Of a DNA stretch of 64,000 nt, positions 37,768 to 50,302 are shown piece by piece. The stretch's first letter is position 1; each line of letters opens with the position of its first letter. Below the pieces are notes generated by a model, which saw only the letters and a program-made list of their open reading frames with translations, was not told the origin of the DNA and ran no database searches. This stretch comes from an uncultured bacterium (GTDB taxonomy: Bacteria; Patescibacteriota; JAHJAL01). The stretch is from the NCBI GenBank assembly GCA_938004065.1, contig CALKWM010000039.1, positions 1,313 through 65,312 on the forward strand, written 5' to 3'. A program made the position numbers and the translations under genes.

Positions 37768-38115
37768 ATGTCCAACATCAAAAACCTAACCCAAAAATTA
37801 ATAAATTTCCGCGACGCGCGAGATTGGAAACAGTTCCACAAACCCAAAGATATGGCTATTTCTCTCTCGCTGGAAGCTTCCGAATTATTGGAACATTTTC
37901 AATGGAAAAGTGAGCAAGAAATTGAAGAGTATTTGAAAGATCATAAAAATGATCTGGCCGATGAACTGGCGGATGTTCTAAATACTTTGCTGATGATTTG
38001 CTACGACCTTGATATCAATATCATCGAAGCTTCAGAAAAGAAATTGATCAAAAACAATTTGAAATATCCGGTGGAGAAAGCGAAGGGAAAACATACGAAG
38101 TATAGCAAGTTGTAG
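37768..38115 (+). CDS. MazG-like nucleotide pyrophosphohydrolase (small all-alpha NTP-PPase).
   Basis: FRDARDWKQFH..SLEASELLEHFQW..ELADVL has the EExxE/D metal-binding pattern of MazG-like/HisE-type NTP-PPases. It is about 80% identical to the paralog at 40796..41143. Confidence 0.65.
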   Translation: MSNIKNLTQKLINFRDARDWKQFHKPKDMAISLSLEASELLEHFQWKSEQEIEEYLKDHKNDLADELADVLNTLLMICYDLDINIIEASEKKLIKNNLKYPVEKAKGKHTKYSKL

Positions 38116-38295: not shown

Positions 38296-39178
38296 GAGTA
38301 ATATCAAGCACTTGGAACATTGGATATTAGATAAGATAGTAAATTAGCTGGTTTTGAAACAATTTCTTTGTAGTTGAATCTAGCTAGAAATTCTTGCAGA
38401 TATTCTGATAGTTTTTCTTTAGTGACATGATGATAAATTCTTCGAAGCATAGTTTTAAGTAAAGCCCATACTCTTTCAATAGCTGATGAATATTTTAACT
38501 GCCAACGATCATGGTATTCAATTCTGTGGCCATAACCATACCATTCAATATCAATGTAGCTTAAGAATCCATCAGTAGTAATTAGACTGTCAGTTAATAT
38601 ATTATCTGTTAAAAACTTTTCTACTATTCCTTGTTCTCTGGTTTCGACAATCTCTAAGCAGATGTGATCAAACTCCCGATTAACAGCTCCAATAATTACC
38701 GATTGGTTACCATTTCTTCTTTTACCAATAAAACATTCATCAACAATAATATCACCACCTAACATCAAATCATCTCGCGGTAAGTTCTTTCTTAAGTGTG
38801 AATAAATTCTCCTAATTGATGGATATGACACTTCAATTAAATCTTGGGCTATTCTTAAAGGAACCTTCTCGCTAAAACAATGGATAGCTTTTAGTATTTG
38901 TCTGATTGTTAATTTGGAATACTTGAAGCCTAACGATATTCTAAGACTGAATTTATAACGGCATTTTCGACACCAATACCGATTAGATAGTTGTCTAACA
39001 TATCTGATTCTGCCACATCTCGGACATTTGATTTTAGACAAATACTTTTTCTTTACTAATTTAACAGCTTGTTTTTCATCAAGAAGTTTAATAAATTTAG
39101 ACATAGGAACAGATTAGATGATTAAGATGTATGATATTTTAATTATTTAACATCTGTTCCAATTTCTTTATATAACTC
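38296..39178 (-). mobile_element. IS1595-family insertion sequence (883 bp) with imperfect ~25-bp TIRs and an 8-bp target-site duplication TACCAGAT.
   Basis: Left end GAGTAATATCAAGCACTTGGAACA; reverse complement of the right end GAGTTATATAAAGAAATTGGAACA. TACCAGAT lies directly outside both ends, at 38288-38295 and 39179-39186. Confidence 0.75.
38304..39104 (-). CDS. IS1595/ISXO2-like DDE transposase with an N-terminal zinc ribbon.
   Basis: CPRCG..CRKCRYKF zinc ribbon, then a DDE region (VDECFIGKR..TDGF..YGYGHRIEYH). Confidence 0.75.
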   Translation of the reverse strand: MSKFIKLLDEKQAVKLVKKKYLSKIKCPRCGRIRYVRQLSNRYWCRKCRYKFSLRISLGFKYSKLTIRQILKAIHCFSEKVPLRIAQDLIEVSYPSIRRIYSHLRKNLPRDDLMLGGDIIVDECFIGKRRNGNQSVIIGAVNREFDHICLEIVETREQGIVEKFLTDNILTDSLITTDGFLSYIDIEWYGYGHRIEYHDRWQLKYSSAIERVWALLKTMLRRIYHHVTKEKLSEYLQEFLARFNYKEIVSKPANLLSYLISNVPSA

Positions 39179-40005: not shown

Positions 40006-40788
40006 ATGAACAAAATGTATTCAAGAGTGGCCGCCATCATTGCCTTTATCGTCATGGTCGTGCTTAACTATCTGGCGGTCTCACTCCCGCTGGGTGGTCG
40101 CGACACCGGCGCTATTTCCGATGCTTATCCCAATCTGTTCGCCCCGGCGGGATACGCTTTCTCGATCTGGGGACTGATCTATACCCTGCTGGCGATCTAT
40201 GTTGTCTATCAGCTAGTGCGGGGAAACAAACTGACCGATCAAATCAATCGGATATTTATCATCAACGCCTTATTCAATGCCGGCTGGCTCATCGCCTGGC
40301 ACTACGATGTGATCTGGCTGTCGGTTATCATCATGCTCGGTCTGCTCATCACTCTGATCAAAATCGCTGATTTATTGAAAGTGCAAAAACTGACCAAAGC
40401 CGAACACTGGCTGGTCCGCTTGCCTTTTAGTATTTATTTCGGCTGGATCACGGTGGCGACGATTGCCAATGTGACGATACTCTTGGTCAGTCTGGGTTGG
40501 AATGGTTTTGGCCTGTCGGAAGTTTTCTGGACGGTGGCGATATTGCTGGTCGGCACGCTGATCGGCACCTGGCGGACCATCCTTGACCGTAACATCCCCT
40601 ACGCACTGGTGCTGATCTGGGCCTACGGCGCGATCCTGGCCAAGCATCTCTCCGGCGGCGAATTCGCCGGCCAATATCCGGCGGTGATTTACGTGGTTGT
40701 GTTTTGTCTGGTGGTTTTTGGAGGGAGTATGATCTATGTGACAGGGAAAAATTTGAGGGTGGGAAGTAGGGGGAGAGATTTAATTTAA
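40006..40788 (+). CDS. TspO/MBR-like tryptophan-rich membrane protein; GC-rich, likely acquired.
   Basis: FAPAGYAFSIWGLIYTLLAIYVVYQ, several WxxxW-type aromatic motifs, and 5-7 TM helices. GC content is visibly higher than in the neighbouring sequence. Confidence 0.45.
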   Translation: MNKMYSRVAAIIAFIVMVVLNYLAVSLPLGGRDTGAISDAYPNLFAPAGYAFSIWGLIYTLLAIYVVYQLVRGNKLTDQINRIFIINALFNAGWLIAWHYDVIWLSVIIMLGLLITLIKIADLLKVQKLTKAEHWLVRLPFSIYFGWITVATIANVTILLVSLGWNGFGLSEVFWTVAILLVGTLIGTWRTILDRNIPYALVLIWAYGAILAKHLSGGEFAGQYPAVIYVVVFCLVVFGGSMIYVTGKNLRVGSRGRDLI

Positions 40789-40795
40789 TCAAAAT

Positions 40796-41143
40796 ATGAA
40801 AAATATCGATGATCTGACCCAAAAAATTATCACCTTCCGCGATGCGCGGGATTGGAAGCAATTTCACAACCCCAAAGACTGTGCCATCTCGCTTTCTTTG
40901 GAAGCCAGTGAAGTGCTGGAGCATTTTCAATGGAAAAGCGAGAAAGAAATTGAAGATTATTTGAAAGTTCATAAAGACGATCTGGCGGAAGAACTGGCCG
41001 ATGTTTTCAATTATTTGCTGTTGATGTGCCATGATCTGGAGATTGATATTATGGAGGCATCGGAAAAGAAGCTAATACAAAACAATTTGAAATATCCGGT
41101 AGAGAAAGCGAGAGGGAGGCATACGAAGTATAGTGAGTTGTAA
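40796..41143 (+). CDS. MazG-like nucleotide pyrophosphohydrolase (paralog of 37768..38115).
   Basis: Same motifs. The protein is about 80% identical to the other copy. Confidence 0.65.
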   Translation: MKNIDDLTQKIITFRDARDWKQFHNPKDCAISLSLEASEVLEHFQWKSEKEIEDYLKVHKDDLAEELADVFNYLLLMCHDLEIDIMEASEKKLIQNNLKYPVEKARGRHTKYSEL

Positions 41144-41186
41144 AATTAATACATTAGTTTAATACCTTTACAGAAATTAATAATAA

Positions 41187-41705
41187 ATGATCAAAAAAGT
41201 TAAAATACAGAAAAGTGAGAAGATAAATATTTATATCGATGGCGCCAATCTTGATAAAGGCATCAAGGATTTGGGTTGGAATTTGGATTATAAAAGATTT
41301 TATCGCTGGTTGAAAGATAAATATAAATTTAAAAATATCTATTTGTTTATCGGGCTGGTGCCCAGATTTAAGGATTTATATAAATATTTGCAAGAGATTG
41401 GTTATGTCTTGGTGTTCAAAGAAACAACCAGTGACGGTGATGGTAACGTGAAAGGCAATTGTGATGCAGATTTGGTATTAGCAGTGAGCAGAGATTTTTA
41501 TGAAGACAAATTTGATAAATCAATAATTGTTTCAAGTGATGGTGATTATGCTAGTATGATTAAATTTTTGAAAGACAAGAAGGCTATAAAAATATTATTA
41601 TCACCGAACAATAAATGCTCGATTTTACTCAAGCGTACCGGAGTGCCGATTTCCTATCTCAATTATCAAAAAAGAAAAATTCAGCAAAATAGAAAAAACC
41701 CCTAA
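41187..41705 (+). CDS. NYN-domain (LabA-like) putative ribonuclease (divergent paralog of 35461..36054).
   Basis: NIYIDGANLDKG, GNCDADLVL and VSSDGDY are NYN motifs. Confidence 0.65.
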   Translation: MIKKVKIQKSEKINIYIDGANLDKGIKDLGWNLDYKRFYRWLKDKYKFKNIYLFIGLVPRFKDLYKYLQEIGYVLVFKETTSDGDGNVKGNCDADLVLAVSRDFYEDKFDKSIIVSSDGDYASMIKFLKDKKAIKILLSPNNKCSILLKRTGVPISYLNYQKRKIQQNRKNP

Positions 41706-41859: not shown

Positions 41860-43137
41860 TATGTCCAAAAAAGAAGTACAAACTAGAATTAAGGTAAATA
41901 AACTACTCGAAGAAACCGGGTGGCGGTTTTTTGATAGCGAAACATGGCCGACCAATATCCGGCGGTTATTTATGCAGTTGTGTTTTGTCTGCTCGTTTTT
42001 GGGGGGAGTATAATTTATGTGATAGGGAAAAATGCGAGGGTGGGGAGGTAGATTCCAAGAAAGACTTATCAAAATTAAATTGAGTCAAAACCCTCTTACG
42101 TCCACCTTTGGAGGGAAGCGACACTAACGATATTATTTAAATTAACTATATCCTGTATGGCGCGAATTATTATAAAAAACAACTAGTACTCTTTATATGA
42201 TTTTGATAACGAAGCGGAATTTGAAAAAGCGGTTATTGAAAATCAGAAGTATATTTTCGGAAAAGATTCAATTTATATTGACGTAAAAAAAAGAATAGGA
42301 CGGGATAATCATCGCGGGATTCCTGATGCATTTTTAATTGATTTCTATGATACCAATAAACCGCAACTATATATAATTGAAAATGAGATTGCATCTCATG
42401 ACGTGTATTCAAATATTACTGAGCAAATCGCGCGTTTTGGCACTAGTATTGTTTCTTCTGCAAACGAAATACGCAATATATTAATCAAGGCAGTTGAAAG
42501 CGAACCAAAAACAATAAAAGAAATTGAGCGGTATTTACTGCAAACGGTATTTAAGAATATCACAGAACTAATGATTTTTCTCACCGAAGAAAATGATATT
42601 AAAATCGTAGTTGCAATCAATGAAATTACAACCGATCTGAATCTTGCTTTTAAGATTTTTAAGAATCCGCCGGACTTAGTTTTATTGCAACGCTATATAT
42701 ACGGAAATGATGTTTCATACTATTACGAACCGATGCGTGAAGAAATTGAAGATATTGAAACAGAGAAAAGCAAAACTGGCGAAGCCGTAGATTTCAATAC
42801 AGTTGTTTGTGCTGCATTAGAAGACGGTTTCAAACACGCATATAAGGAAAATAATGCTTGGTGGGCTATTCGGCTTTCACAAGAAGCGAGAGAAAAATTG
42901 AAGTATTTAGCGATTTATGAAAAAGCGCCGGTTGCGCATATTAGTCATTATGCAGAAATTGATAGGATTGAACCATACAAAGATACTGGTAAATACATTC
43001 TGTTTTTAAAAAATAAAAAAACAGTAAAACCGATCAAGCTTGGCACAGGAAAAAAAGGTGAAGCACCACAAGCGCCAAGATATACTACGCTTGAAAAACT
43101 ATTAAACGCTGATTCAATAAGTGAATTATGGAGTTGA
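41860..43137 (+). pseudogene. Disrupted PD-(D/E)xK / HsdR_N-like nuclease-family gene. Its N-terminus (41860-~41940) and body (42187-43137) are in the same frame, separated by a ~245-bp insertion that includes a duplicated TspO 3' fragment.
   Basis: N-terminal MSKKEVQTRIKVNKLLEETGWRF matches the ETRxKxIDxxLxxxGW start of HsdR_N/Mrr-type restriction proteins. The body has GIPDAFLIDF..LYIIENE. Stops lie between the two parts. Confidence 0.45.
41941..42050 (+). repeat. ~110-bp duplicated copy (about 85% identical) of the 3' end of the TspO-like gene (40666-40775).
   Basis: Aligned by eye: GGCC(G)ACCAATATCCGGCGGT(T/G)ATTTA..GTGTTTTGTCTG..GGGAGTAT.ATTTATGTGA.AGGGAAAAAT..GAGGGTGGG.AGGTAG. Confidence 0.6.
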
Positions 43138-43289
43138 TAATTAATAATATAAAGAATCATAAGAATACTATTATCAAATAATTTGGATGTTCTTGCTATT
43201 CCGAAAAATTTTTGTAAGATTAGGTATAACGAAGTATCCACTTGTTTCTATCGGTATTTTATAATGTTCTTTTTTAATAAGATATTAAT

Positions 43290-44888
43290 ATGTCTAAATT
43301 TAAAGATATTCCTCTAATCGATAGGCCAAGAGAAAGATTTTTAGTAAAAGGCCCAGATGTGCTTTCAAAAAGCGATCTTTTAGCGATTTTACTTGGTAGT
43401 GGAATCAAGGGGAAAAATGTAAAACAACTTTCCGAACAAATCATCAGGAAATTTAGCAACAAATTTTTAGATATTACTGTTGATGATCTTTTAGAAATTC
43501 CTGGAATTGGAAAAGCGAAGGCATTGCAGATTGTTTCTGCTCTCGCTTTGGTTAAAAGATTTTACAATGAACTTGGACCAAAAGATAATGTTGTTTTGTC
43601 CGTGCAAGACGCCGTTTCACTAACTTCTGAAATTAGAAACAAGAAAAAGGAATATTTAGTTTGTCTTTATCTGAATGCCCGAAATGTTTTGCTAAAAAAA
43701 GAAATTATCTCAATCGGAACGCTTGATAAAAGTTTAATTCATCCGCGAGAAATATTTGGCCCCGCCGTAGAATTAAGAGCGGCAGGAGTTGTTCTTTTGC
43801 ATAATCACCCGTCTGGCGATGTTGAGCCAAGCAAGCAGGATATTGAAGTAATCAATAAAATTCTTGAGGCCGGCAAAATTATGGGGGTGAATGTTATTGA
43901 TTTTATTATTGTTAGTGAAAATGACTTACACAGCATTTTTCAGTCATCACAGAAAGAAATCACGCATTATGTATCTGACGGGGGGCAGAATTCACTTTTT
44001 GATCTGCTTGAAACCGAACAGCAAACCTATACTCCGACAATAAAAAAAATACATAAAGTGTATTTTTACCCTGAAAGCAGAGCAAAGGCGGGTCGCTTTC
44101 AACTACAAAATAGACGCTATTTAGGAAATAAATACAAATTACTTGGATTTATTGAAGATATTATAAACGAAAAATGCAACGGCTTTAGTGTTTTTTGCGA
44201 TATTTTTGCGGGAACAGGAGTTGTCGCGGAACGATTTAACGAGAAAAATATCAAAGTGATTGCTAACGATTTTTTATCGAGCAATTTTATACCACTTAAA
44301 GCATTTTTAGGAACATCAAAAATAGACTTTGAGGAGATAGAGCACAAAATAAATTTACTCAATGAACTAAAAGCAACAGATGACAATTATTTTTCTGAAA
44401 ACTTTGGCGATACATATTTTACTTTAGAAAACGCAAGAAAAATTGGCGCAATTAGAGAAAAGATAAATAAGTTAAGCAATAATGAGGACGAAGAAGCGGT
44501 TTTAATTGCCTCATTGCTTTATGCGGTGGATAAAGTGGCAAATACCGTAGGGCATTATGACGCTTTCCGTAAAAAATTAGACACGGTGCAACCTTTGCGG
44601 CTTTTAGTGCCTGATTTTGAGGCGGAAAACAATATAAATAACGAAATATACAAGGAAGATGCCAATCAACTAATCAGAAAAATAAGTTGCGATGTTTTAT
44701 ACATTGATCCACCCTACAATTCACGCCAGTATTCAGATGCTTATCACCTTTTAGAAAATCTTGCTGCTTGGAAAAAACCGATCGTGCATGGCAAGGCGAA
44801 AAAAATGGATCGTTCGCATATCAAAAGCGATTACTGCTTGCAATCTGCGGCCAAAGCCTTTGCTGATTTAAATTATAACTATAATTGA
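43290..44888 (+). CDS. Fusion protein: N-terminal RadC-like JAB/MPN domain plus C-terminal D12-class (Dam-like) N6-adenine DNA methyltransferase.
   Basis: RadC signature HNHPSGD (JAMM) with upstream helix-hairpin-helix IPGIGKAKAL. C-terminal half has YLGNKYKLL, SAM motif I DIFAGTGVV and motif IV LYIDPPYNSRQYS. Confidence 0.7.
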   Translation: MSKFKDIPLIDRPRERFLVKGPDVLSKSDLLAILLGSGIKGKNVKQLSEQIIRKFSNKFLDITVDDLLEIPGIGKAKALQIVSALALVKRFYNELGPKDNVVLSVQDAVSLTSEIRNKKKEYLVCLYLNARNVLLKKEIISIGTLDKSLIHPREIFGPAVELRAAGVVLLHNHPSGDVEPSKQDIEVINKILEAGKIMGVNVIDFIIVSENDLHSIFQSSQKEITHYVSDGGQNSLFDLLETEQQTYTPTIKKIHKVYFYPESRAKAGRFQLQNRRYLGNKYKLLGFIEDIINEKCNGFSVFCDIFAGTGVVAERFNEKNIKVIANDFLSSNFIPLKAFLGTSKIDFEEIEHKINLLNELKATDDNYFSENFGDTYFTLENARKIGAIREKINKLSNNEDEEAVLIASLLYAVDKVANTVGHYDAFRKKLDTVQPLRLLVPDFEAENNINNEIYKEDANQLIRKISCDVLYIDPPYNSRQYSDAYHLLENLAAWKKPIVHGKAKKMDRSHIKSDYCLQSAAKAFADLNYNYN

Positions 44889-45751
44889 CTATGAAAAAAT
44901 CAAATTCAATTATCTTATTTAAACAAAAACAAGTTAGGCGTATTTGGGACGAAGAAAAAGAACTTTGGTATTTTTCGATCGTAGATGTGGTTGAAATATT
45001 GACGGATAGTCCAAGACCTAGAAAATACTGGAACGCCTTAAAAACCAAGCTAAAAGAGGAAGGAAGCGAGTTGTCCCAAAAAGTGGGACAACTGAAATTA
45101 GAGGCGGCTGATGGGAAAAAATACCTCACAGATGTAGCTGACACAGAAACTCTTTTGAGATTAATTCAATCGATACCATCGCCTAAAGCTGAACCCTTTA
45201 AACTTTGGCTGGCAAAAGTTGGCTATCAAAGGATTGAAGAAACCGAAGATCCTGAACTTGCCATTGATAGAGCGATGAAAACTTACTTGCAAAAAGGATA
45301 TTCGAAAGAGTGGATAAATCAACGGTTAAAAAGCATTGAGGTTAGAAAAGAGCTTACTGACGAATGGCAAATTAGAGGCATGAAAGAGGGATTGGAATAC
45401 GCAATATTGACGGATGAAATCACAAAAGCTTGGGCTGATAAAAATGTTAGAGATTACAAAAAATTTAAAGGATTGAAAAAAGAAAATTTGCGAGACAATA
45501 TGACAAATTTGGAATTGGTGCTCAATATGTTGGCTGAGGTTTCTACCGCAGAAATATCCAAAAAGCAAAAACCAAAAGGATTGGAAGAAAACAAGGGAGT
45601 AGCTCGCAAAGGTGGGTTTGCCGCTAAAAAGGCAAGACTTGAAATTGAAAAACAAACAGGTGAAAGGGTTGTTAGCTCAAAAAATGCAAAACATTTACAA
45701 GTAAAGGCAAAAAAATTTAAATCTTTGCCTAAAGAAAATAATCAAGAATAA
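44885..45751 (+). CDS. Bro-N domain protein, DinD-like (DNA-damage-inducible protein D family).
   Basis: N-terminal RRIWDEEKELWYFSIVDVVEIL is Bro-N-like. The C-terminal half resembles E. coli DinD (GLKKxN..NMxxxELxxN..). Confidence 0.5.
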   Translation: MTMKKSNSIILFKQKQVRRIWDEEKELWYFSIVDVVEILTDSPRPRKYWNALKTKLKEEGSELSQKVGQLKLEAADGKKYLTDVADTETLLRLIQSIPSPKAEPFKLWLAKVGYQRIEETEDPELAIDRAMKTYLQKGYSKEWINQRLKSIEVRKELTDEWQIRGMKEGLEYAILTDEITKAWADKNVRDYKKFKGLKKENLRDNMTNLELVLNMLAEVSTAEISKKQKPKGLEENKGVARKGGFAAKKARLEIEKQTGERVVSSKNAKHLQVKAKKFKSLPKENNQE

Positions 45752-45753
45752 TC

Positions 45754-46671
45754 ATGTCAATACAAATTCTATCAAATTTGAACTATCCAATTGGCAATAT
45801 AATTAGCCAAGAATTACAGAACGCAAATTCGGCAAAAATCGCTGTCGCTTTTTTGAAGTATTCGGGCGTAAAGGTTATCGAGAAGCCATTGGATAATTGC
45901 TTGAGAAATAATGGCAATATTGAAATTATTGCAGGACTTGATTTTAAAACAACTGACCCGCAATCAATGCATTATTTAATACAACTGCAAAAACAAACGC
46001 CAAATTTGAAATTTTATTGTTATGGCGACAAGGATGAGAACAAGACCGATGTTGTTTTTCACCCCAAAATTTATTTGTTTGAAAAAGCACGAGAGACTAC
46101 TGGCATTGTTGGAAGCACGAATTTGACACGAGGTGGTTTGCTTTCTAATTTTGAAGTAAATGTTGTAATTAAAGAGACAAAACCACTTTATTTTTCGCAG
46201 CTTCAAGCAATTTATAATTTCGTAAAATTTACGGATTCTGTTTTCTCTCCAGACGAAGAATATTTAGCGGGATACTCCGATGTTTATAAAGCATTTTTGC
46301 AAAACGAACAGAAAGCAACAAAAGACAAAGGCATTCAAAATGTTGTTCGTCAAATAAATAAGCGAGCTGAATCTTTGCCCGGAACAGTGCCATCAGTCAA
46401 AAGCTTGATTATTGATGTTATTAAAAAAGGAAAAGAACAAGGCGTGGAATTTGTGTCATTACAGACAATTTATGAAGAAGTTGAAAAAATTGTCGAAGAG
46501 AAAAAACTAAATTACAAAATGGATACTTTTAGAAACTCCATCAGAGGGGAACTAAACAAACACGAAACACATAGCAAGCACCCTGATAATATGGATTTAT
46601 TTATCCGATCATTAGAACGAAAGGGATTTTATTCATTAACCGATAAAGGTAAAAATTATGAAGGGCGATAA
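45754..46671 (+). CDS. PLD-superfamily nuclease (HxK..GSxN) with a ~160-aa C-terminal domain; candidate BfiI/NgoAVII-like restriction endonuclease.
   Basis: HPKIYLFEKARETTGIVGSTNLT carries the HxK(x)4D..GSxN phospholipase-D nuclease signature. A DNA methyltransferase lies immediately downstream. Confidence 0.6.
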   Translation: MSIQILSNLNYPIGNIISQELQNANSAKIAVAFLKYSGVKVIEKPLDNCLRNNGNIEIIAGLDFKTTDPQSMHYLIQLQKQTPNLKFYCYGDKDENKTDVVFHPKIYLFEKARETTGIVGSTNLTRGGLLSNFEVNVVIKETKPLYFSQLQAIYNFVKFTDSVFSPDEEYLAGYSDVYKAFLQNEQKATKDKGIQNVVRQINKRAESLPGTVPSVKSLIIDVIKKGKEQGVEFVSLQTIYEEVEKIVEEKKLNYKMDTFRNSIRGELNKHETHSKHPDNMDLFIRSLERKGFYSLTDKGKNYEGR

Positions 46672-46794
46672 AAATATTCAACAACGAATTGCCTGTCTGG
46701 AGGCAAAAATTGAACACAAAATCAATTATTCTTCTGGAAGCGTGGATGACGAAAGCCGAATTGATGATTTATCTTGCGAACTTTTAAAACTTGA

Positions 46795-47541
46795 AGAGGC
46801 GATTGCATAAAAATACTAAACGAAAAAATTGATGAAAGATCAGTTGAATTGATTTTTGCCGATCCGCCCTACAATCTTTCGGGAAACGGTTTGAAATGGG
46901 AAGGCAATAAAACAGGTGGTAATTGGTACATGGTCAATGAGGAATGGGACAAAATGACTGCTCCTGAATATATGCAATTTACCCGCAAATGGATCGGGGG
47001 CTGTCATAAAGTTTTGAAAGATAACGGCTCAATTTATATTTCTTGCACTTATCACAATCTTGCAGAGGTGATGATCGTTCTCAAACAACAGGATTTTAAG
47101 ATTAACAATGTCATTGTTTGGCGAAAGACAAATGCTATGCCGAATATGACAAAAAGAGTTTTTACACACTCCACGGAATTTGTCGTCTGGGCCGTAAAAG
47201 GCAAAAAATGGATTTTCAATTATGCAGAATTAAAAAAGATAAATCCTGAAAAACAAAAGGATGGTTCAGAAAAACAAATGAGAGATGTCTGGTCGCTTCC
47301 TTTGGTCCAAGGAAAAGAAAGGTTAAGAGGAAAAGACGGACGCGCTTTGCATCCAACTCAAAAGCCAGAGGAAATGTTAAAACGAATAATTATCGCTTCC
47401 TCAAACAAAGGCGACACTGTTTTAGATCCTTTTTTAGGTAGCGGAACAACGGCCTTTGTTGCTAAAAAATTAAGACGAAATTGGATCGGCATTGAAAAAA
47501 GCGGAAAATATGTTGATATGGCAAATAAAAGAATGAAATAG
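46795..47541 (+). CDS. Beta-class N6-adenine/N4-cytosine DNA methyltransferase (N6_N4_Mtase). The N-terminus is unclear: the first canonical start is TTG at 46849, the conserved GDCIKILNEKIDERSVELIFADPPY begins right after a TGA, and a possible frameshift links it to the ATG at 46658.
   Basis: Motif IV DPPY near the N-terminus, then HPTQKP and FLGSGTT (motif I), which is the beta-class order. The frame was analysed by hand around 46780-46800. Confidence 0.7.
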   Translation, partial: RGDCIKILNEKIDERSVELIFADPPYNLSGNGLKWEGNKTGGNWYMVNEEWDKMTAPEYMQFTRKWIGGCHKVLKDNGSIYISCTYHNLAEVMIVLKQQDFKINNVIVWRKTNAMPNMTKRVFTHSTEFVVWAVKGKKWIFNYAELKKINPEKQKDGSEKQMRDVWSLPLVQGKERLRGKDGRALHPTQKPEEMLKRIIIASSNKGDTVLDPFLGSGTTAFVAKKLRRNWIGIEKSGKYVDMANKRMK

Positions 47542-49270: not shown

Positions 49271-50302
49271 GTGAATAAAATGTCCCGACCAGATTTGCCC
49301 AACCAGAGTGACAAATTTCTCCTCTACACCTCTCCCGCCGGTGAGATAAAAATCGAAGTCTTTTTTCAAGACGAGACTGTCTGGCTCACCCAGAAAAAAA
49401 TGGCGGAATTGTTCGGTGTAGATAAACGCACGATCAGCGAGCATTTAAAGAATATTTACCATAGCGGCGAGTTGAAAGAGAATTCAACTGTCCGGAAATT
49501 CCGGACAGTTCAAAAAGAAGGCGAGAGACAGATAGTCAGAGAAATCGAATACTACAACCTCGACGCTATCATCTCCGTCGGTTACCGAGTCAACTCCTCT
49601 CGCGCCACCCAATTTCGCATTTGGGCCACAAAAACATTGCGGGAGTTCATCATCAAAGGCTTTGTACTCGATGACAATCGTTTGAAAAACGGGCAATATT
49701 TTGGCCAAGATTATTTTCAGGAATTACTGGAGCGTATCCGCTCGATCCGGGCGAGTGAACGAAGGGTGTATCAGAAAATTACCGATATATTTGCCGAATG
49801 CAGTATTGATTATGATGAAAATTCCGAAATAACAAAAAATTTCTATGCCATGATTCAAAATAAATTTCATTTTGCCATTTCCGGCAAAACAGCGGCTGAG
49901 ATAATATACGATCGCGCCAATGCCAAAGAAATGAATATGGGAATGACTACCTGGAAACACGCGCCGAAGGGAAGAATATTAAAATCGGACGCGGTGATTG
50001 CCAAAAATTATTTAGCAGAAAAAGACATCAAACGACTAGAACGAACAGTATCTAGTTATTTTGACTATTTAGAGAATCAAGTGGAAAACCGAGTGACTAT
50101 GACCATGGATTATCTAACGGAGAGTGTTGATAAATTTTTGTCATTCAACGATTATAAGTTATTGGCAGGGAAGGGAAAAGTTTCACAACAAAAAGCCAAG
50201 AAAAAAGCACATTCCGAATATGATAAATTTAATAAGACACAAAAAATAGAATCTGATTTTGATAAATTCTCCCAAAATATATTAAATAAAATTAAACCAT
50301 GA
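49271..50302 (+). CDS. RhuM-family (Virulence_RhuM) protein, typical of mobile islands.
   Basis: [32 protein letters not shown] matches the RhuM signature. Confidence 0.7.

What the first reader, a model, noticed from the sequence alone, without database searches (positions are those of the whole stretch)
43290..44888. RadC(JAB)-Dam(D12) fusion methyltransferase
A single ORF joins a RadC-like JAMM domain (HNHPSGD) to a D12-class N6-adenine DNA methyltransferase (motif I DIFAGTGVV; motif IV DPPY). RadC and orphan Dam methyltransferases are both common cargo of phages and conjugative elements, where they are linked to anti-restriction, but a covalent fusion is unusual. Bro-N/DinD and RhuM genes are nearby, so this may be mobile-element-derived cargo.
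Basis: partly seen in the sequence, partly recalled or inferred. Interest (0 to 1): 0.55.

Follow-up and report, generated by a model that had tools for sequence, protein, structure and literature searches.

The report
Truncated RadC-fused restriction-system methyltransferase remnant
The RadC–adenine-methyltransferase fusion is real and belongs to a widespread, apparently undescribed family that serves as one methylase of a mobile AlwI-type restriction-modification module, but this copy is a cut-off remnant whose restriction gene was replaced by a small invading nuclease cassette.

Summary
The 532-aa ORF (43290-44888, +) does join a complete RadC protein (HhH + JAB, intact JAMM motif) to a D12 N6-adenine methyltransferase. 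It is not a rare orphan. More than 120 protein clusters and about 34 GTDB species carry the same fusion, normally 601-606 aa. There it is the first methylase (M1) of a module RadC-M1 / AlwI-family endonuclease / CcrM-like M2.

In this window, 2,085 bp of that module are missing: the last 76 codons of M1, the whole endonuclease gene and the first 8 codons of M2. A 1,925-bp cassette (Bro-N/PDC-S13 gene, PLD/HKD nuclease gene, orf50) sits in their place. The ORF is therefore very probably methylation-dead.

The same junctions occur in two diverged allele lineages, so the cassette spreads by recombination through the M1/M2 flanks.

At family level, the RadC module is fused to three methylase classes in at least five restriction-system types. 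It always carries a linker motif QxSLF, which matches the bacterial sliding-clamp-binding consensus. I found no paper describing any of this.

Its reading (orphan anti-restriction cargo of a phage or conjugative element) is only partly supported.

The parts
43290..44888 (+). RadC-D12 fusion ORF, 532 aa. It is a 3'-truncated allele of a 601-aa M1 methyltransferase.
   Evidence: ORF. Domains. It is 93% identical to the 601-aa P0001/P0002 over aa 1-525.
43302..43523 (+). UPF0758_N / helix-hairpin-helix DNA-binding domain of RadC (aa 5-78)
   Evidence: Pfam PF20582, 2.1e-20; HHH 1e-3
43605..43937 (+). RadC JAB domain (aa 106-216). The JAMM motif is intact: E154, H171-x-H173, S181, D184 (His-to-Asp stretch at nt 43800-43841).
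   Evidence: Pfam PF04002, 1e-34. PDB 2QLC RadC homologue, 8e-30. H171, H173 and D184 are invariant; E154 and S181 are at least 90% conserved in 58 homologues.
43968..44003 (+). Conserved island in the otherwise variable linker: Y-V-S-D-G-G-Q-N-S-L-F-D (aa 227-238). QNSLF lies at nt 43986-44000. This is a candidate beta-sliding-clamp-binding motif.
   Evidence: Q-x-[ST]-[LI]-[FL] is present in 120/120 D12 fusions, and also in C5 fusions. It is absent from stand-alone RadC and from LexA-, HTH- or N-less versions of M1. Consensus QL[S/D]LF / QxxLF is taken from PMC12309361. The AF2 model has pLDDT below 50 for aa 220-289.
44118..44871 (+). D12 methyltransferase domain, truncated. Motif I is at nt 44199-44225 and motif IV (DPPY) at nt 44706-44717. 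Homology to intact M1 ends at nt 44871.
   Evidence: Pfam profile positions 1-225/253. PADLOC 3-267/339. blastn and junction alignment.
44871..44872 (.). Left junction: M1 codon 527 | cassette. The cassette supplies the tail NYNYN and the stop codon.
   Evidence: The junction is identical in L049, L032 and L063.
44891..45751 (+). Bro-N domain gene (286 aa from the ATG), first gene of the replacing cassette. It belongs to the PADLOC defence-candidate family PDC-S13.
   Evidence: Pfam Bro-N 2.5e-10. PADLOC PDC-S13 6.7e-134, profile positions 1-280/286. phrog_15286.
45754..46671 (+). PLD/HKD-family nuclease gene (305 aa) with an intact HxK...GSxN motif and a C-terminal winged-helix-like domain
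   Evidence: Pfam PLDc_2 and RE_NgoFVII. 648 homologues found; the best 120 are 76-93% identical and span several phyla. Invariant H103, K105, G120, S121, N123. AF2 and Foldseek: SauUSI, NucT, NgoAVII, BfiI.
46658..46810 (+). orf50, a small ORF at the 3' end of the cassette. Its stop codon is supplied by M2 sequence.
   Evidence: It is conserved in L013 and L049 (omega 0.2-0.26).
46796..46797 (.). Right junction: cassette | M2 codon 9
   Evidence: The junction is identical in L049 and L013.
46797..47541 (+). Remnant of the second methyltransferase M2 (N6_N4, CcrM/HinfI-like). It has lost its start codon and first 8 codons, there is an in-frame stop at 46792-46794, and the first possible start is TTG at 46849 (230 aa).
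   Evidence: PADLOC profile positions 32-253/260. 88% nt identity to the intact M2 of L001.

Best explanation
The ORF is a genuine member of a family of RadC-fused DNA methyltransferases. In intact form (about 601 aa) the protein has three parts: a full RadC (HhH DNA-binding domain plus a JAB metalloenzyme domain with all JAMM ligands); a roughly 50-residue disordered linker with the conserved island YxSDGxQxSLFD; and an AlwI-system-type D12 m6A methyltransferase. It is M1 of a compact, horizontally mobile module, often preceded by an HTH gene: RadC-M1, an AlwI/N.BspD6I-family type IIS endonuclease, and M2 (a CcrM/HinfI-like N6_N4 methylase).

By inference, M1 and M2 each protect one strand of an asymmetric site.

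The RadC-linker module is one of several interchangeable N-terminal modules on the same methylase core (none, HTH, LexA, RadC). My preferred reading, which is inferred and not shown, is that its QxSLF motif tethers the methylase to the beta sliding clamp. That would place methylation on newly replicated or repaired DNA.

In this window the module has been gutted. A 1,925-bp cassette (Bro-N/PDC-S13 gene, PLD nuclease gene, orf50) replaced 2,085 bp. This removed the last 76 codons of M1 (three core beta-strands and a helix), the whole endonuclease gene, and the start of M2.

The 532-aa product therefore keeps an apparently functional RadC and linker but very probably cannot methylate DNA, and the restriction system is dead.

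The cassette carries the same junctions in different M1/M2 allele lineages. It therefore moves between related modules by homologous recombination, using the methylase genes as arms.
For: Domain calls.

Family size and length: more than 120 clusters, 601-606 aa, 71-93% identity.

Operon structure. In the 50-locus GTDB survey, about 22 loci have the intact triad, across Patescibacteria, Atribacterota, Planctomycetia, a 2.2-Mb Gammaproteobacteria chromosome and others.

Endonuclease identity: RE_AlwI, and N.BspD6I at 6.6e-34.

Nearest annotated methylase: a Dam-family double methylase next to an 'AlwI family type II restriction endonuclease' on pEG81-1.

Replacement: window 43287-44871 matches L001 9028-10612 at 89.6%, and window 46797-47532 matches L001 12697-13432 at 88%, with no homology in between.

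Missing C-terminus: it is absent from the window. It contains at least 27 invariant residues. AF2 predicts E532-542, H557-565, E568-576 and E591-599 there.

Further decay in sister loci: M1 is frameshifted after aa 287 in L049, only fragments remain in L068, and only a 260-aa RadC is left in L060.

Junction identity across lineages. Allele clades are 90% identical within and 76-78% between, and each clade contains both intact and disrupted loci.

Different histories of cassette and flank: cassette dS is 1.14 against 0.44-0.58 for the M1 flank.

Linker motif. Clamp-binding consensus.

Interchangeable N-terminal modules.
Against: The truncated methylase part shows no relaxed constraint. On the window lineage it has 4 non-synonymous against 19 synonymous changes. 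Omega is 0.055 for window vs L049 and 0.057 for L032 vs L013, both pairs disrupted, and this equals intact pairs. I explain this by recent or repeated cassette entry and flank exchange, but it also fits a retained function.

The AF2 model of M1 is low-confidence (mean pLDDT 57.7), and no solved D12 structure aligns by sequence. The 'core strands lost' argument therefore rests on family conservation, profile coverage and textbook knowledge of the Dam fold.

Clamp binding is inferred from a five-residue motif only. The conserved island also includes YxSDG, which is not part of the canonical motif.

The recognition sequence is unknown.

Whether this genome has another radC is unknown; only 64 kb could be checked.
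Confidence: 0.8

Rival explanations
1. The truncated M1 (RadC + linker + AdoMet/target-recognition part + DPPY) and the N-truncated M2 are not dead remnants. They have been retained as working partners of the Bro-N/PLD cassette, for example as a DNA-recognition or clamp-tethering subunit for the PLD nuclease, or simply because the RadC part is needed.
For: The reading frame is intact up to the junction in the window, L032, L013 and L017-20. Omega is about 0.055 in the truncated methylase part and 0.042 in the M2 remnant, between pairs that are both disrupted. The PLD gene was found inside fragments of this restriction-system family in all five arrangements inspected: the window, L013, L017-20, L015-16 and L060. 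RadC is kept intact in L049 (aa 1-287) and L060 (260-aa ORF) while the methylase part is broken or lost.
Against: Disrupted alleles are polyphyletic and share junctions, which points to recent recombinational entry rather than long vertical maintenance. M2 has no canonical start before the DPPY strand. L049 has frameshifts in the methylase part and L068 has lost almost everything. Left junctions differ (aa 527, about 536, and a third position in L017), so no specific truncated product is conserved.
Confidence: 0.15
2. One reading: an active orphan RadC-Dam fusion methyltransferase, carried as anti-restriction cargo by a phage or conjugative element.
For: RadC and solitary methylases do occur separately on conjugative plasmids. 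Of 2,389 plasmid records with a partial match, 1,627 are conjugative. RadC is listed among domains of conjugative-element polyvalent proteins (PMC5512222). Bro-N and RhuM genes lie nearby.
Against: No plasmid or phage record and no IMG/VR contig contains the fusion. Relatives are always next to an endonuclease gene. This copy lacks the last 76 residues. The Dam family model is not matched (24.6 bits against 114.85). No conjugation or phage structural genes lie within 10 kb on either side.
Confidence: 0.04
3. radC is the host's resident housekeeping gene. Restriction-modification cassettes repeatedly land at its 3' end and become fused by chance in compact genomes, so the fusion has no functional meaning.
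For: The RadC part matches the housekeeping-type equivalog model. RadC parts of D12 and C5 fusions are 62-64% identical while the partner methylases are unrelated. recG, a housekeeping gene, lies near two loci. No second radC is seen in the 64-kb window.
Against: DNA homology between loci begins within 3-16 nt of the M1 start codon and ends at the M2 stop, while the flanking genes differ. RadC therefore travels with the module. Fusion-type RadC carries a specific conserved C-terminal extension that stand-alone RadC lacks. The same fusion at 60-94% identity occurs in unrelated phyla.
Confidence: 0.08
4. The conserved linker island (YxSDGxQxSLFD) is not a clamp-binding motif. It is instead a processing site or docking peptide, for example the site where the JAB peptidase cleaves the methylase off. 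This would parallel the LexA/S24 self-cleaving module found at the same position in sister proteins.
For: LexA (DNA-binding domain plus S24 autoprotease) replaces RadC (DNA-binding domain plus JAB) on the same methylase core. The conserved island extends upstream of the pentapeptide. Characterised JAB domains are peptidases (PMC3239186).
Against: The conserved positions are exactly 1, 3, 4 and 5 of QL[S/D]LF, with position 2 free (12 different residues). This is the known pattern of clamp-binding motifs. RadC-type JAB domains are argued to act on nucleic acids and to lack the ubiquitin-tail groove.
Confidence: 0.2

Closest known systems
AlwI-family type IIS restriction-modification systems (AlwI, N.BspD6I/BspD6I, and the Enterococcus pEG81-1 system)
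   Same: In relatives, the endonuclease next to the fusion matches Pfam RE_AlwI and N.BspD6I (6.6e-34). The D12 domain is 52% identical to a plasmid Dam-family double methylase that sits next to an annotated AlwI-family endonuclease. Both use two methylase activities for an asymmetric site (own knowledge).
   Different: Here the two methylases are separate genes of different classes (D12 and N6_N4), not one double-D12 protein. M1 carries an N-terminal RadC module. In the window itself the endonuclease gene is gone and both methylase genes are truncated.
RadC / YicR family (TIGR00608, NF000642; PDB 2QLC)
   Same: It has the full HhH + JAB architecture and the JAMM ligands, and it scores above the equivalog cut-off.
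   Different: It has a conserved C-terminal extension with QxSLF and is covalently fused to a DNA methyltransferase. Published RadC fusions are to HhH, ArdC, DnaG primase and DinG/RAD3 helicase (PMC3239186); none is to a methylase.
Restriction-system methyltransferases with N-terminal regulatory DNA-binding domains (SsoII/EcoRII-type HTH-methylases; own knowledge), and the LexA- and HTH-fused versions of this same M1 seen here
   Same: A DNA-binding module is placed N-terminal to the methylase of a type II system. The modules are positionally interchangeable on one methylase core.
   Different: RadC is an enzyme-containing module of unknown activity. No operator or regulatory role has been shown for it.
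DpnI/DpnII alternative cassettes of Streptococcus pneumoniae (Lacks et al. 1986; own knowledge, not checked in the library)
   Same: Alternative nuclease cassettes occupy one locus and are exchanged by recombination through shared flanks. In both cases an R-M system alternates with a solitary nuclease.
   Different: Here the homology arms are the methylase genes themselves, and the exchange cuts them. Whether the PLD nuclease is methyl-directed is unknown.
Eukaryotic Dnmt1-PCNA (PIP box) tethering, and bacterial clamp-binding proteins and transposases
   Same: A short linear clamp-binding-type motif lies in a disordered segment of a DNA-acting enzyme (PMC4549789 is listed).
   Different: My searches found no bacterial DNA methyltransferase reported to bind the clamp. 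Binding has not been tested here.

Membership tests
RadC family (PF04002 + PF20582; NCBIfam NF000642 / TIGR00608) | N-terminal UPF0758/HhH domain followed by a JAB domain, scoring above the curated cut-offs | tested here: met
   PF20582 73 bits (cut-off 27.1). PF04002 119.5 bits (cut-off 22.1). NF000642 202.7 bits (cut-off 180). TIGR00608 184.4 bits (cut-off 133.85)..
RadC family | JAMM metal-binding motif E...HxHx7Sx2D | tested here: met
   E154, H171, H173, S181 and D184 are present in the window ORF. They are invariant or at least 90% conserved in 58 homologues.
D12-class N6-adenine DNA methyltransferase (PF02086) | AdoMet motif I (FxGxG) and catalytic motif IV (DPPY), in the order I...IV | tested here: met
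   DIFAGTGVV at aa 304-312 and DPPY at aa 473-476. PF02086 113.5 bits.
D12-class N6-adenine DNA methyltransferase (PF02086) | Complete catalytic domain, including the segment after motif IV | tested here: not met
   Pfam profile positions 1-225/253 against 1-241 in intact relatives. PADLOC MTase_II 3-267/339. 76 residues with at least 27 invariant positions are missing and are absent from the window.
Dam family (TIGR00571, GATC orphan or repair methylase) | Score above the family cut-off | tested here: not met
   24.6 bits against a cut-off of 114.85, over aa 277-328 only.
AlwI-family type IIS restriction-modification system | Adjacent cognate AlwI-family endonuclease gene | tested here: not met
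   It is absent from the window; 44872-46796 holds Bro-N, PLD and orf50 instead. It is present next to the fusion in about 22 of 50 GTDB loci and in L001-L007.
AlwI-family type IIS restriction-modification system | Two functional methylase activities | tested here: not met
   M1 lacks its C-terminus. M2 lacks its start codon and first 8 codons, with an in-frame stop upstream.
Orphan methylase / anti-restriction cargo of phages or conjugative elements | Located on a phage, plasmid or ICE, with no cognate endonuclease | tested here: not met
   No record in 72,556 plasmids or 50,697 phages has a match covering at least 80% of the query, and the IMG/VR scan gave no hit. Relatives are always next to an endonuclease gene.
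Beta-sliding-clamp-binding proteins | Pentapeptide QL[S/D]LF / QxxLF in an accessible segment | tested here: met
   QNSLF at aa 233-237. 120/120 family members carry Q-x-[ST]-[LI]-[FL]. The linker is predicted to be disordered. Consensus.
Beta-sliding-clamp-binding proteins | Physical binding to DnaN | not testable with these tools
   This needs peptide-DnaN binding assays or complex prediction.
Cassette exchange of alternative restriction systems (DpnI/DpnII type) | Alternative gene sets at one locus, bounded by shared homologous flanks, with recombinational exchange | tested here: met
   Junctions are identical in two allele clades, each of which also has intact members. Cassette dS differs from flank dS.
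Cassette exchange of alternative restriction systems (DpnI/DpnII type) | Complementary specificity (nuclease directed against the methylated site) | not tested
   The only hints are a PLD fold closest to SauUSI and a winged-helix-like C-terminal domain.

The most novel reading that the evidence does not exclude
RadC-linker-methyltransferase fusions form an undescribed class of replisome-tethered restriction-modification methylases. The conserved QxSLF linker binds the beta sliding clamp, and the RadC HhH-JAB module acts on DNA at the fork. This would give the first concrete functional context for the long-enigmatic RadC protein. In addition, the Bro-N/PLD/orf50 cassette would be a homing-like selfish element, or a DpnI-like complementary nuclease, that specifically overwrites the endonuclease gene of this restriction-system family using the methylase genes as recombination arms.
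Probability: 0.25. Interest if true: 0.8.

Novelty: new variant of a known kind. Interest (0 to 1): 0.58.

Why it matters
RadC is one of the most widespread bacterial proteins without a known function; its repair role was disputed in 'RadC, a misleading name?', cited. Here a full RadC module is repeatedly fused to restriction-system methylases of three chemical classes, always through a linker that matches the sliding-clamp-binding consensus. This yields directly testable hypotheses: clamp tethering, fork-coupled methylation, or signal-dependent processing by analogy with the LexA-fused sister proteins.

The locus also shows at nucleotide resolution how a restriction system is overwritten by a small nuclease cassette through recombination in its own methylase genes. 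This bears on how defence islands turn over in Patescibacteria and other uncultured lineages.

For annotation: the gene is labelled 'DNA repair protein RadC' or 'adenine-specific DNA-methyltransferase' in databases. The window copy should not be counted as an active methylase.

Tried and rejected
(1) I looked for the missing C-terminus elsewhere in the window. tblastn found nothing.

(2) I looked for relaxed selection in the truncated part, using a lineage-specific N/S count and pairwise dN/dS. There was no relaxation, so the test could not date the truncation.

(3) AF2 of the intact homologue from a shallow alignment gave mean pLDDT 57.7. I used it only for secondary structure, did not use it for a fold search, and drew no inter-domain conclusions.

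(4) Sequence search of the PDB for a D12 structure to map the lost segment returned only RadC 2QLC.

(5) Scans of phage, plasmid and IMG/VR collections for the fusion found none.

(6) Literature searches for a RadC-methylase fusion, RadC in CPR/Patescibacteria, RadC JAB function since 2018, and clamp-binding methylases found nothing relevant in the held library.

(7) I rejected the idea that the locus is syntenic between the D12 and C5 fusions, with RadC as a fixed anchor. The flanking HTH genes are only 37% identical and the AAA_13 genes do not align.

(8) The Foldseek search of the PLD model only confirmed a PLD nuclease fold. The C-terminal domain was not resolved separately.

(9) Rfam and tRNA scans found nothing near the locus.

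(10) I did not attempt to predict the recognition site. M2 resembles CcrM/HinfI-type enzymes and the endonuclease resembles N.BspD6I only at a low level, which is too weak to call GAGTC or GGATC.
Full report
**1. The observation**

Window 43290-44888 (+) is one open reading frame of 532 codons.

- Pfam finds three domains: UPF0758_N (the helix-hairpin-helix part of RadC) at aa 5-78, 2e-20; the RadC JAB domain at aa 106-216, 1e-34; and MethyltransfD12 at aa 277-516, 1.8e-32.
- NCBIfam's RadC equivalog model is passed, at 202.7 bits against a cut-off of 180.
- No stop or frameshift separates the domains.

**2. The fusion is a conserved family, and this copy is cut short**

- A search of the 5.8-billion-protein collection returned more than 120 clusters with the same three Pfam domains at 71-93% identity. 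Nearly all are 601-606 aa.
- Alignment with them shows that the window protein follows the family up to ...KAFADL (aa 527). It then ends with NYNYN-stop. Relatives continue for 76 more residues: ITNANCKHILLSYNN...FERDYKAF...ERVFYCKVTK.
- That segment is encoded nowhere in the window.
- It holds at least 27 invariant positions among 58 homologues.
- In a low-confidence AF2 model it forms strand-helix-strand-strand: E532-542, H557-565, E568-576, E591-599. From textbook knowledge of the Dam fold, these are the last three strands of the catalytic sheet.
- Profile coverage agrees: Pfam positions 1-225 of 253 and the PADLOC MTase_II profile 3-267 of 339.
- The exact 532-aa protein is on at least six contigs of independent assemblies. 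These include NCBI GCA_036848155.1 (the likely source of the window) and Logan SRR6007447. The truncation is therefore real.

**3. What the intact gene belongs to**

- In all intact loci fetched, the fusion gene is followed within a few bases by a 610-aa RE_AlwI endonuclease gene and a 256-aa N6_N4 methylase gene.
- The endonuclease matches the solved N.BspD6I/BspD6I large subunit at 6.6e-34.
- A scan of one genome per GTDB species gave 50 loci. Annotating them by tblastn gave the following:
  - about 22 intact triads, in Patescibacteria lineages, Atribacterota, Planctomycetia, Spirochaetaceae and a 2.2-Mb Gammaproteobacteria chromosome, among others;
  - 6 loci with RadC-D12 / a second D12 methylase / a divergent AlwI-like endonuclease;
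  - several loci with the same methylase core but another N-terminus: none (L050, L062), LexA + S24 peptidase (L051), or an unassigned N-terminal extension of about 85 residues that looks like an HTH (L053, L055).
- The closest annotated relative of the methylase domain (52% identity) is a 700-aa Dam-family double methylase next to an 'AlwI family type II restriction endonuclease' on Enterococcus plasmid pEG81-1.
- The Dam family model itself is not matched.
- The protein is therefore M1 of a type IIS restriction-modification module, not an orphan Dam.
- No plasmid (72,556 records), phage (50,697 records) or IMG/VR contig carries the fusion.

**4. What happened in the window**

- blastn against intact loci gives two blocks. 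Window 43287-44871 equals L001 9028-10612 at 89.6%. Window 46797-47532 equals L001 12697-13432 at 88%.
- Between the blocks, L001 has 2,085 bp: the M1 3' end, the endonuclease gene and the first 23 nt of M2. The window instead has 1,925 unrelated bp.
- The replacement contains three ORFs:
  - a Bro-N gene, 44891-45751, matching PADLOC defence candidate PDC-S13 at 6.7e-134;
  - a 305-aa PLD/HKD nuclease gene, 45754-46671;
  - a 50-codon ORF, 46658-46810.
- M2 is left without its start codon and first eight codons. An in-frame stop precedes it, and the first possible start is a TTG inside the DPPY strand.
- The restriction system is therefore dead: no endonuclease, M1 without its C-terminal core, and M2 without its N-terminus.

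**5. The cassette is mobile and targets this module**

- The PLD protein has 648 homologues; the best 120 are 76-93% identical, in MAGs named from Planctomycetes, Omnitrophica, Aminicenantes, Nitrospirae and Patescibacteria.
- In all five arrangements inspected, it sits inside fragments of this same restriction-system family:
  - the window;
  - L013 (RadC-D12 541 aa / DUF4145 / PLD / orf50 / M2 244 aa);
  - L017-20 (RadC-D12 548 aa / PLD / orf76 / N-truncated RE_AlwI);
  - L015-16 (PLD / Bro-N / an 83-aa M2 fragment);
  - L060 (RadC 260 aa / PLD / M2 remnant).
- Five of the roughly 34 RadC-D12 loci in GTDB are of this disrupted kind.
- The left junction of the window is nucleotide-identical in L049, L032 and L063. 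The right junction is identical in L049 and L013.
- The flanking M1 and M2 sequences nevertheless fall into two clades that each contain intact and disrupted members. The window and L049 group with intact L001 and L021 at about 90%. L032 and L013 group with intact L006 at 84-87%. Identity between clades is 76-78%.
- Synonymous divergence between the window and L049 is 1.14 in the cassette genes but 0.44-0.58 in M1. Cassette and flanks therefore have different histories.
- The simplest account is that the cassette, with its junctions, is copied into related modules by homologous recombination through the methylase genes.
- Further decay is visible in sister loci: frameshifts in the methylase part of L049, and only fragments left in L068.

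**6. A caveat on 'dead'**

The truncated methylase part shows strong purifying selection. Omega is about 0.055 even between two disrupted alleles, the same as between intact ones. I attribute this to recent or repeated entry and to flank exchange with intact alleles. A retained role of the remnant cannot be excluded, and I keep it as the main rival.

**7. The RadC module at family level**

- A search of 1.84 billion cluster representatives, followed by Pfam scans, shows the same full RadC module fused N-terminally to three methylase classes:
  - D12;
  - C5 cytosine (P0133, P0176, P0216, L056, L057, L061);
  - N6_N4 (P0227).

  One triple fusion, RadC-C5-D12, was also seen (L059).
- Each fusion whose neighbours I inspected is followed by an endonuclease gene of a different family: AlwI, HpaII + Vsr (L010), EcoRII-C (L011), or NgoFVII-like + Vsr (L056, L061).
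- DNA homology between loci starts within 3-16 nt of the M1 start codon and stops at the M2 stop, while the surrounding genes differ. RadC therefore travels with the module and is not a resident anchor gene.
- Published RadC fusions are to HhH, ArdC, DnaG primase and DinG/RAD3 helicase (PMC3239186; PMC5512222). Six literature searches found no description of RadC-methylase fusions.

**8. The linker motif**

- Fusion-type RadC carries an extension that stand-alone RadC lacks. This is Y227-x-S-D-G-x-Q233-x-S235-L236-F237-D238, the only conserved island in a linker that is otherwise variable and predicted to be disordered.
- All 120 D12 fusions have Q-x-[ST]-[LI]-[FL]. Position 2 is free, with twelve different residues; seven fusions read QLSLF.
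- C5 fusions have QSSLF, QKSLF, QFSFF, QFSLL or QMNFF.
- The motif is absent from the LexA-, HTH- and N-less versions of M1 and from stand-alone RadC.
- This is the consensus bacterial clamp-binding motif, QL[S/D]LF or QxxLF, in which positions 1, 4 and 5 are critical (PMC12309361).
- The window copy has QNSLF at nt 43986-44000.
- I therefore propose, as an inference, that the RadC-linker module tethers the methylase to the beta sliding clamp.
- An alternative is that the island is a processing site for the JAB peptidase. This would parallel the self-cleaving LexA module found at the same position.

**9. Verdict**

- Its interpretation is only partly supported.
- This particular ORF is a truncated remnant of M1 from an overwritten AlwI-type restriction-modification module.
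- The family it belongs to is a new variant of a known kind: a restriction-system methylase with a RadC + clamp-motif N-terminal module.
- The cassette that destroyed it is an interesting mobile element in its own right.

Noticed in passing
window 44872-46796; L013, L017-L020, L015-L016, L032, L049, L060, L063, L068: A Bro-N(PDC-S13)/PLD-nuclease/small-ORF cassette is found repeatedly inside broken RadC-M1/R.AlwI/M2 modules. Its junctions are identical in two diverged allele clades, and its synonymous divergence differs from that of the flanks. This looks like homing or DpnI/DpnII-style cassette replacement of a restriction gene.
   Followed up: partly
window 45754-46671: The 305-aa PLD/HKD nuclease is 76-93% identical across MAGs assigned to very different phyla. 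Its PLD domain is closest to the type IV enzyme SauUSI (PDB 7CLG), NucT, NgoAVII and BfiI. Its C-terminal residues 212-305 fold with pLDDT of about 90 into a winged-helix-like domain. Whether it is methyl-directed is unknown.
   Followed up: partly
L001 17806-19398 (-); L051 5386-7050; P0126: LexA (DNA-binding domain + S24 autopeptidase) is fused N-terminally to restriction-system methyltransferases. In L001 the partner is an N6_N4 methylase next to RE_HindIII. In L051 and P0126 it is the same D12 M1 core as in the finding. This parallels the RadC fusions and hints at damage-responsive control.
   Followed up: partly
L059 1612-4419: A triple fusion RadC - C5 cytosine methylase - D12 adenine methylase (at least 936 aa; the ORF runs off the contig end), in a MAG labelled Pseudomonadota.
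   Followed up: no
L022, L027: The fusion module is 94% and 77% identical on short contigs binned as archaea (Thermoplasmatota, Woesearchaeota). This is either cross-domain transfer or mis-binning. Archaea lack the beta clamp.
   Followed up: no
window 40666-40766 and 41947-42047: An 86%-identical direct repeat of about 101-125 nt. The second copy duplicates the 3' end of the membrane-protein gene 40006-40788. The two copies bracket an inserted MazG-like + NYN gene pair (40796-41705) and a 50-codon ORF whose sequence resembles the N-terminus of a type I restriction subunit (41861-42013; by eye, not tested).
   Followed up: partly
window 37774-38073 vs 40802-41101; 38304-39104 (-): A second, 77%-identical copy of the MazG-like gene lies 3 kb upstream, next to an IS1595-family transposase. 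The region upstream of the finding is a patchwork of duplicated small cassettes.
   Followed up: no
L001 13599-15971; L010 3442-6087; L013 6809-9187: Large AAA_13 ATPase genes lie immediately downstream of RadC-fused restriction modules of different types. The AAA_13 genes of L001 and L010 do not align with each other by blastp.
   Followed up: no
upstream of M1 in L006, L013, L023, L024, L049: A small XRE-type HTH gene ends 2-8 nt before the M1 start codon, with C-terminus ...VGVDDLIK. It is probably the controller protein of the module. It is absent upstream of the window copy, where an AT-rich spacer with a TATAAT box precedes the ORF.
   Followed up: no
window 49271-50302; L032 11329-12156: A true RhuM-family gene lies 1.7 kb downstream of the M2 remnant in the window. 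L032 carries a second Bro-N paralogue (62% identical) downstream of its module.
   Followed up: no
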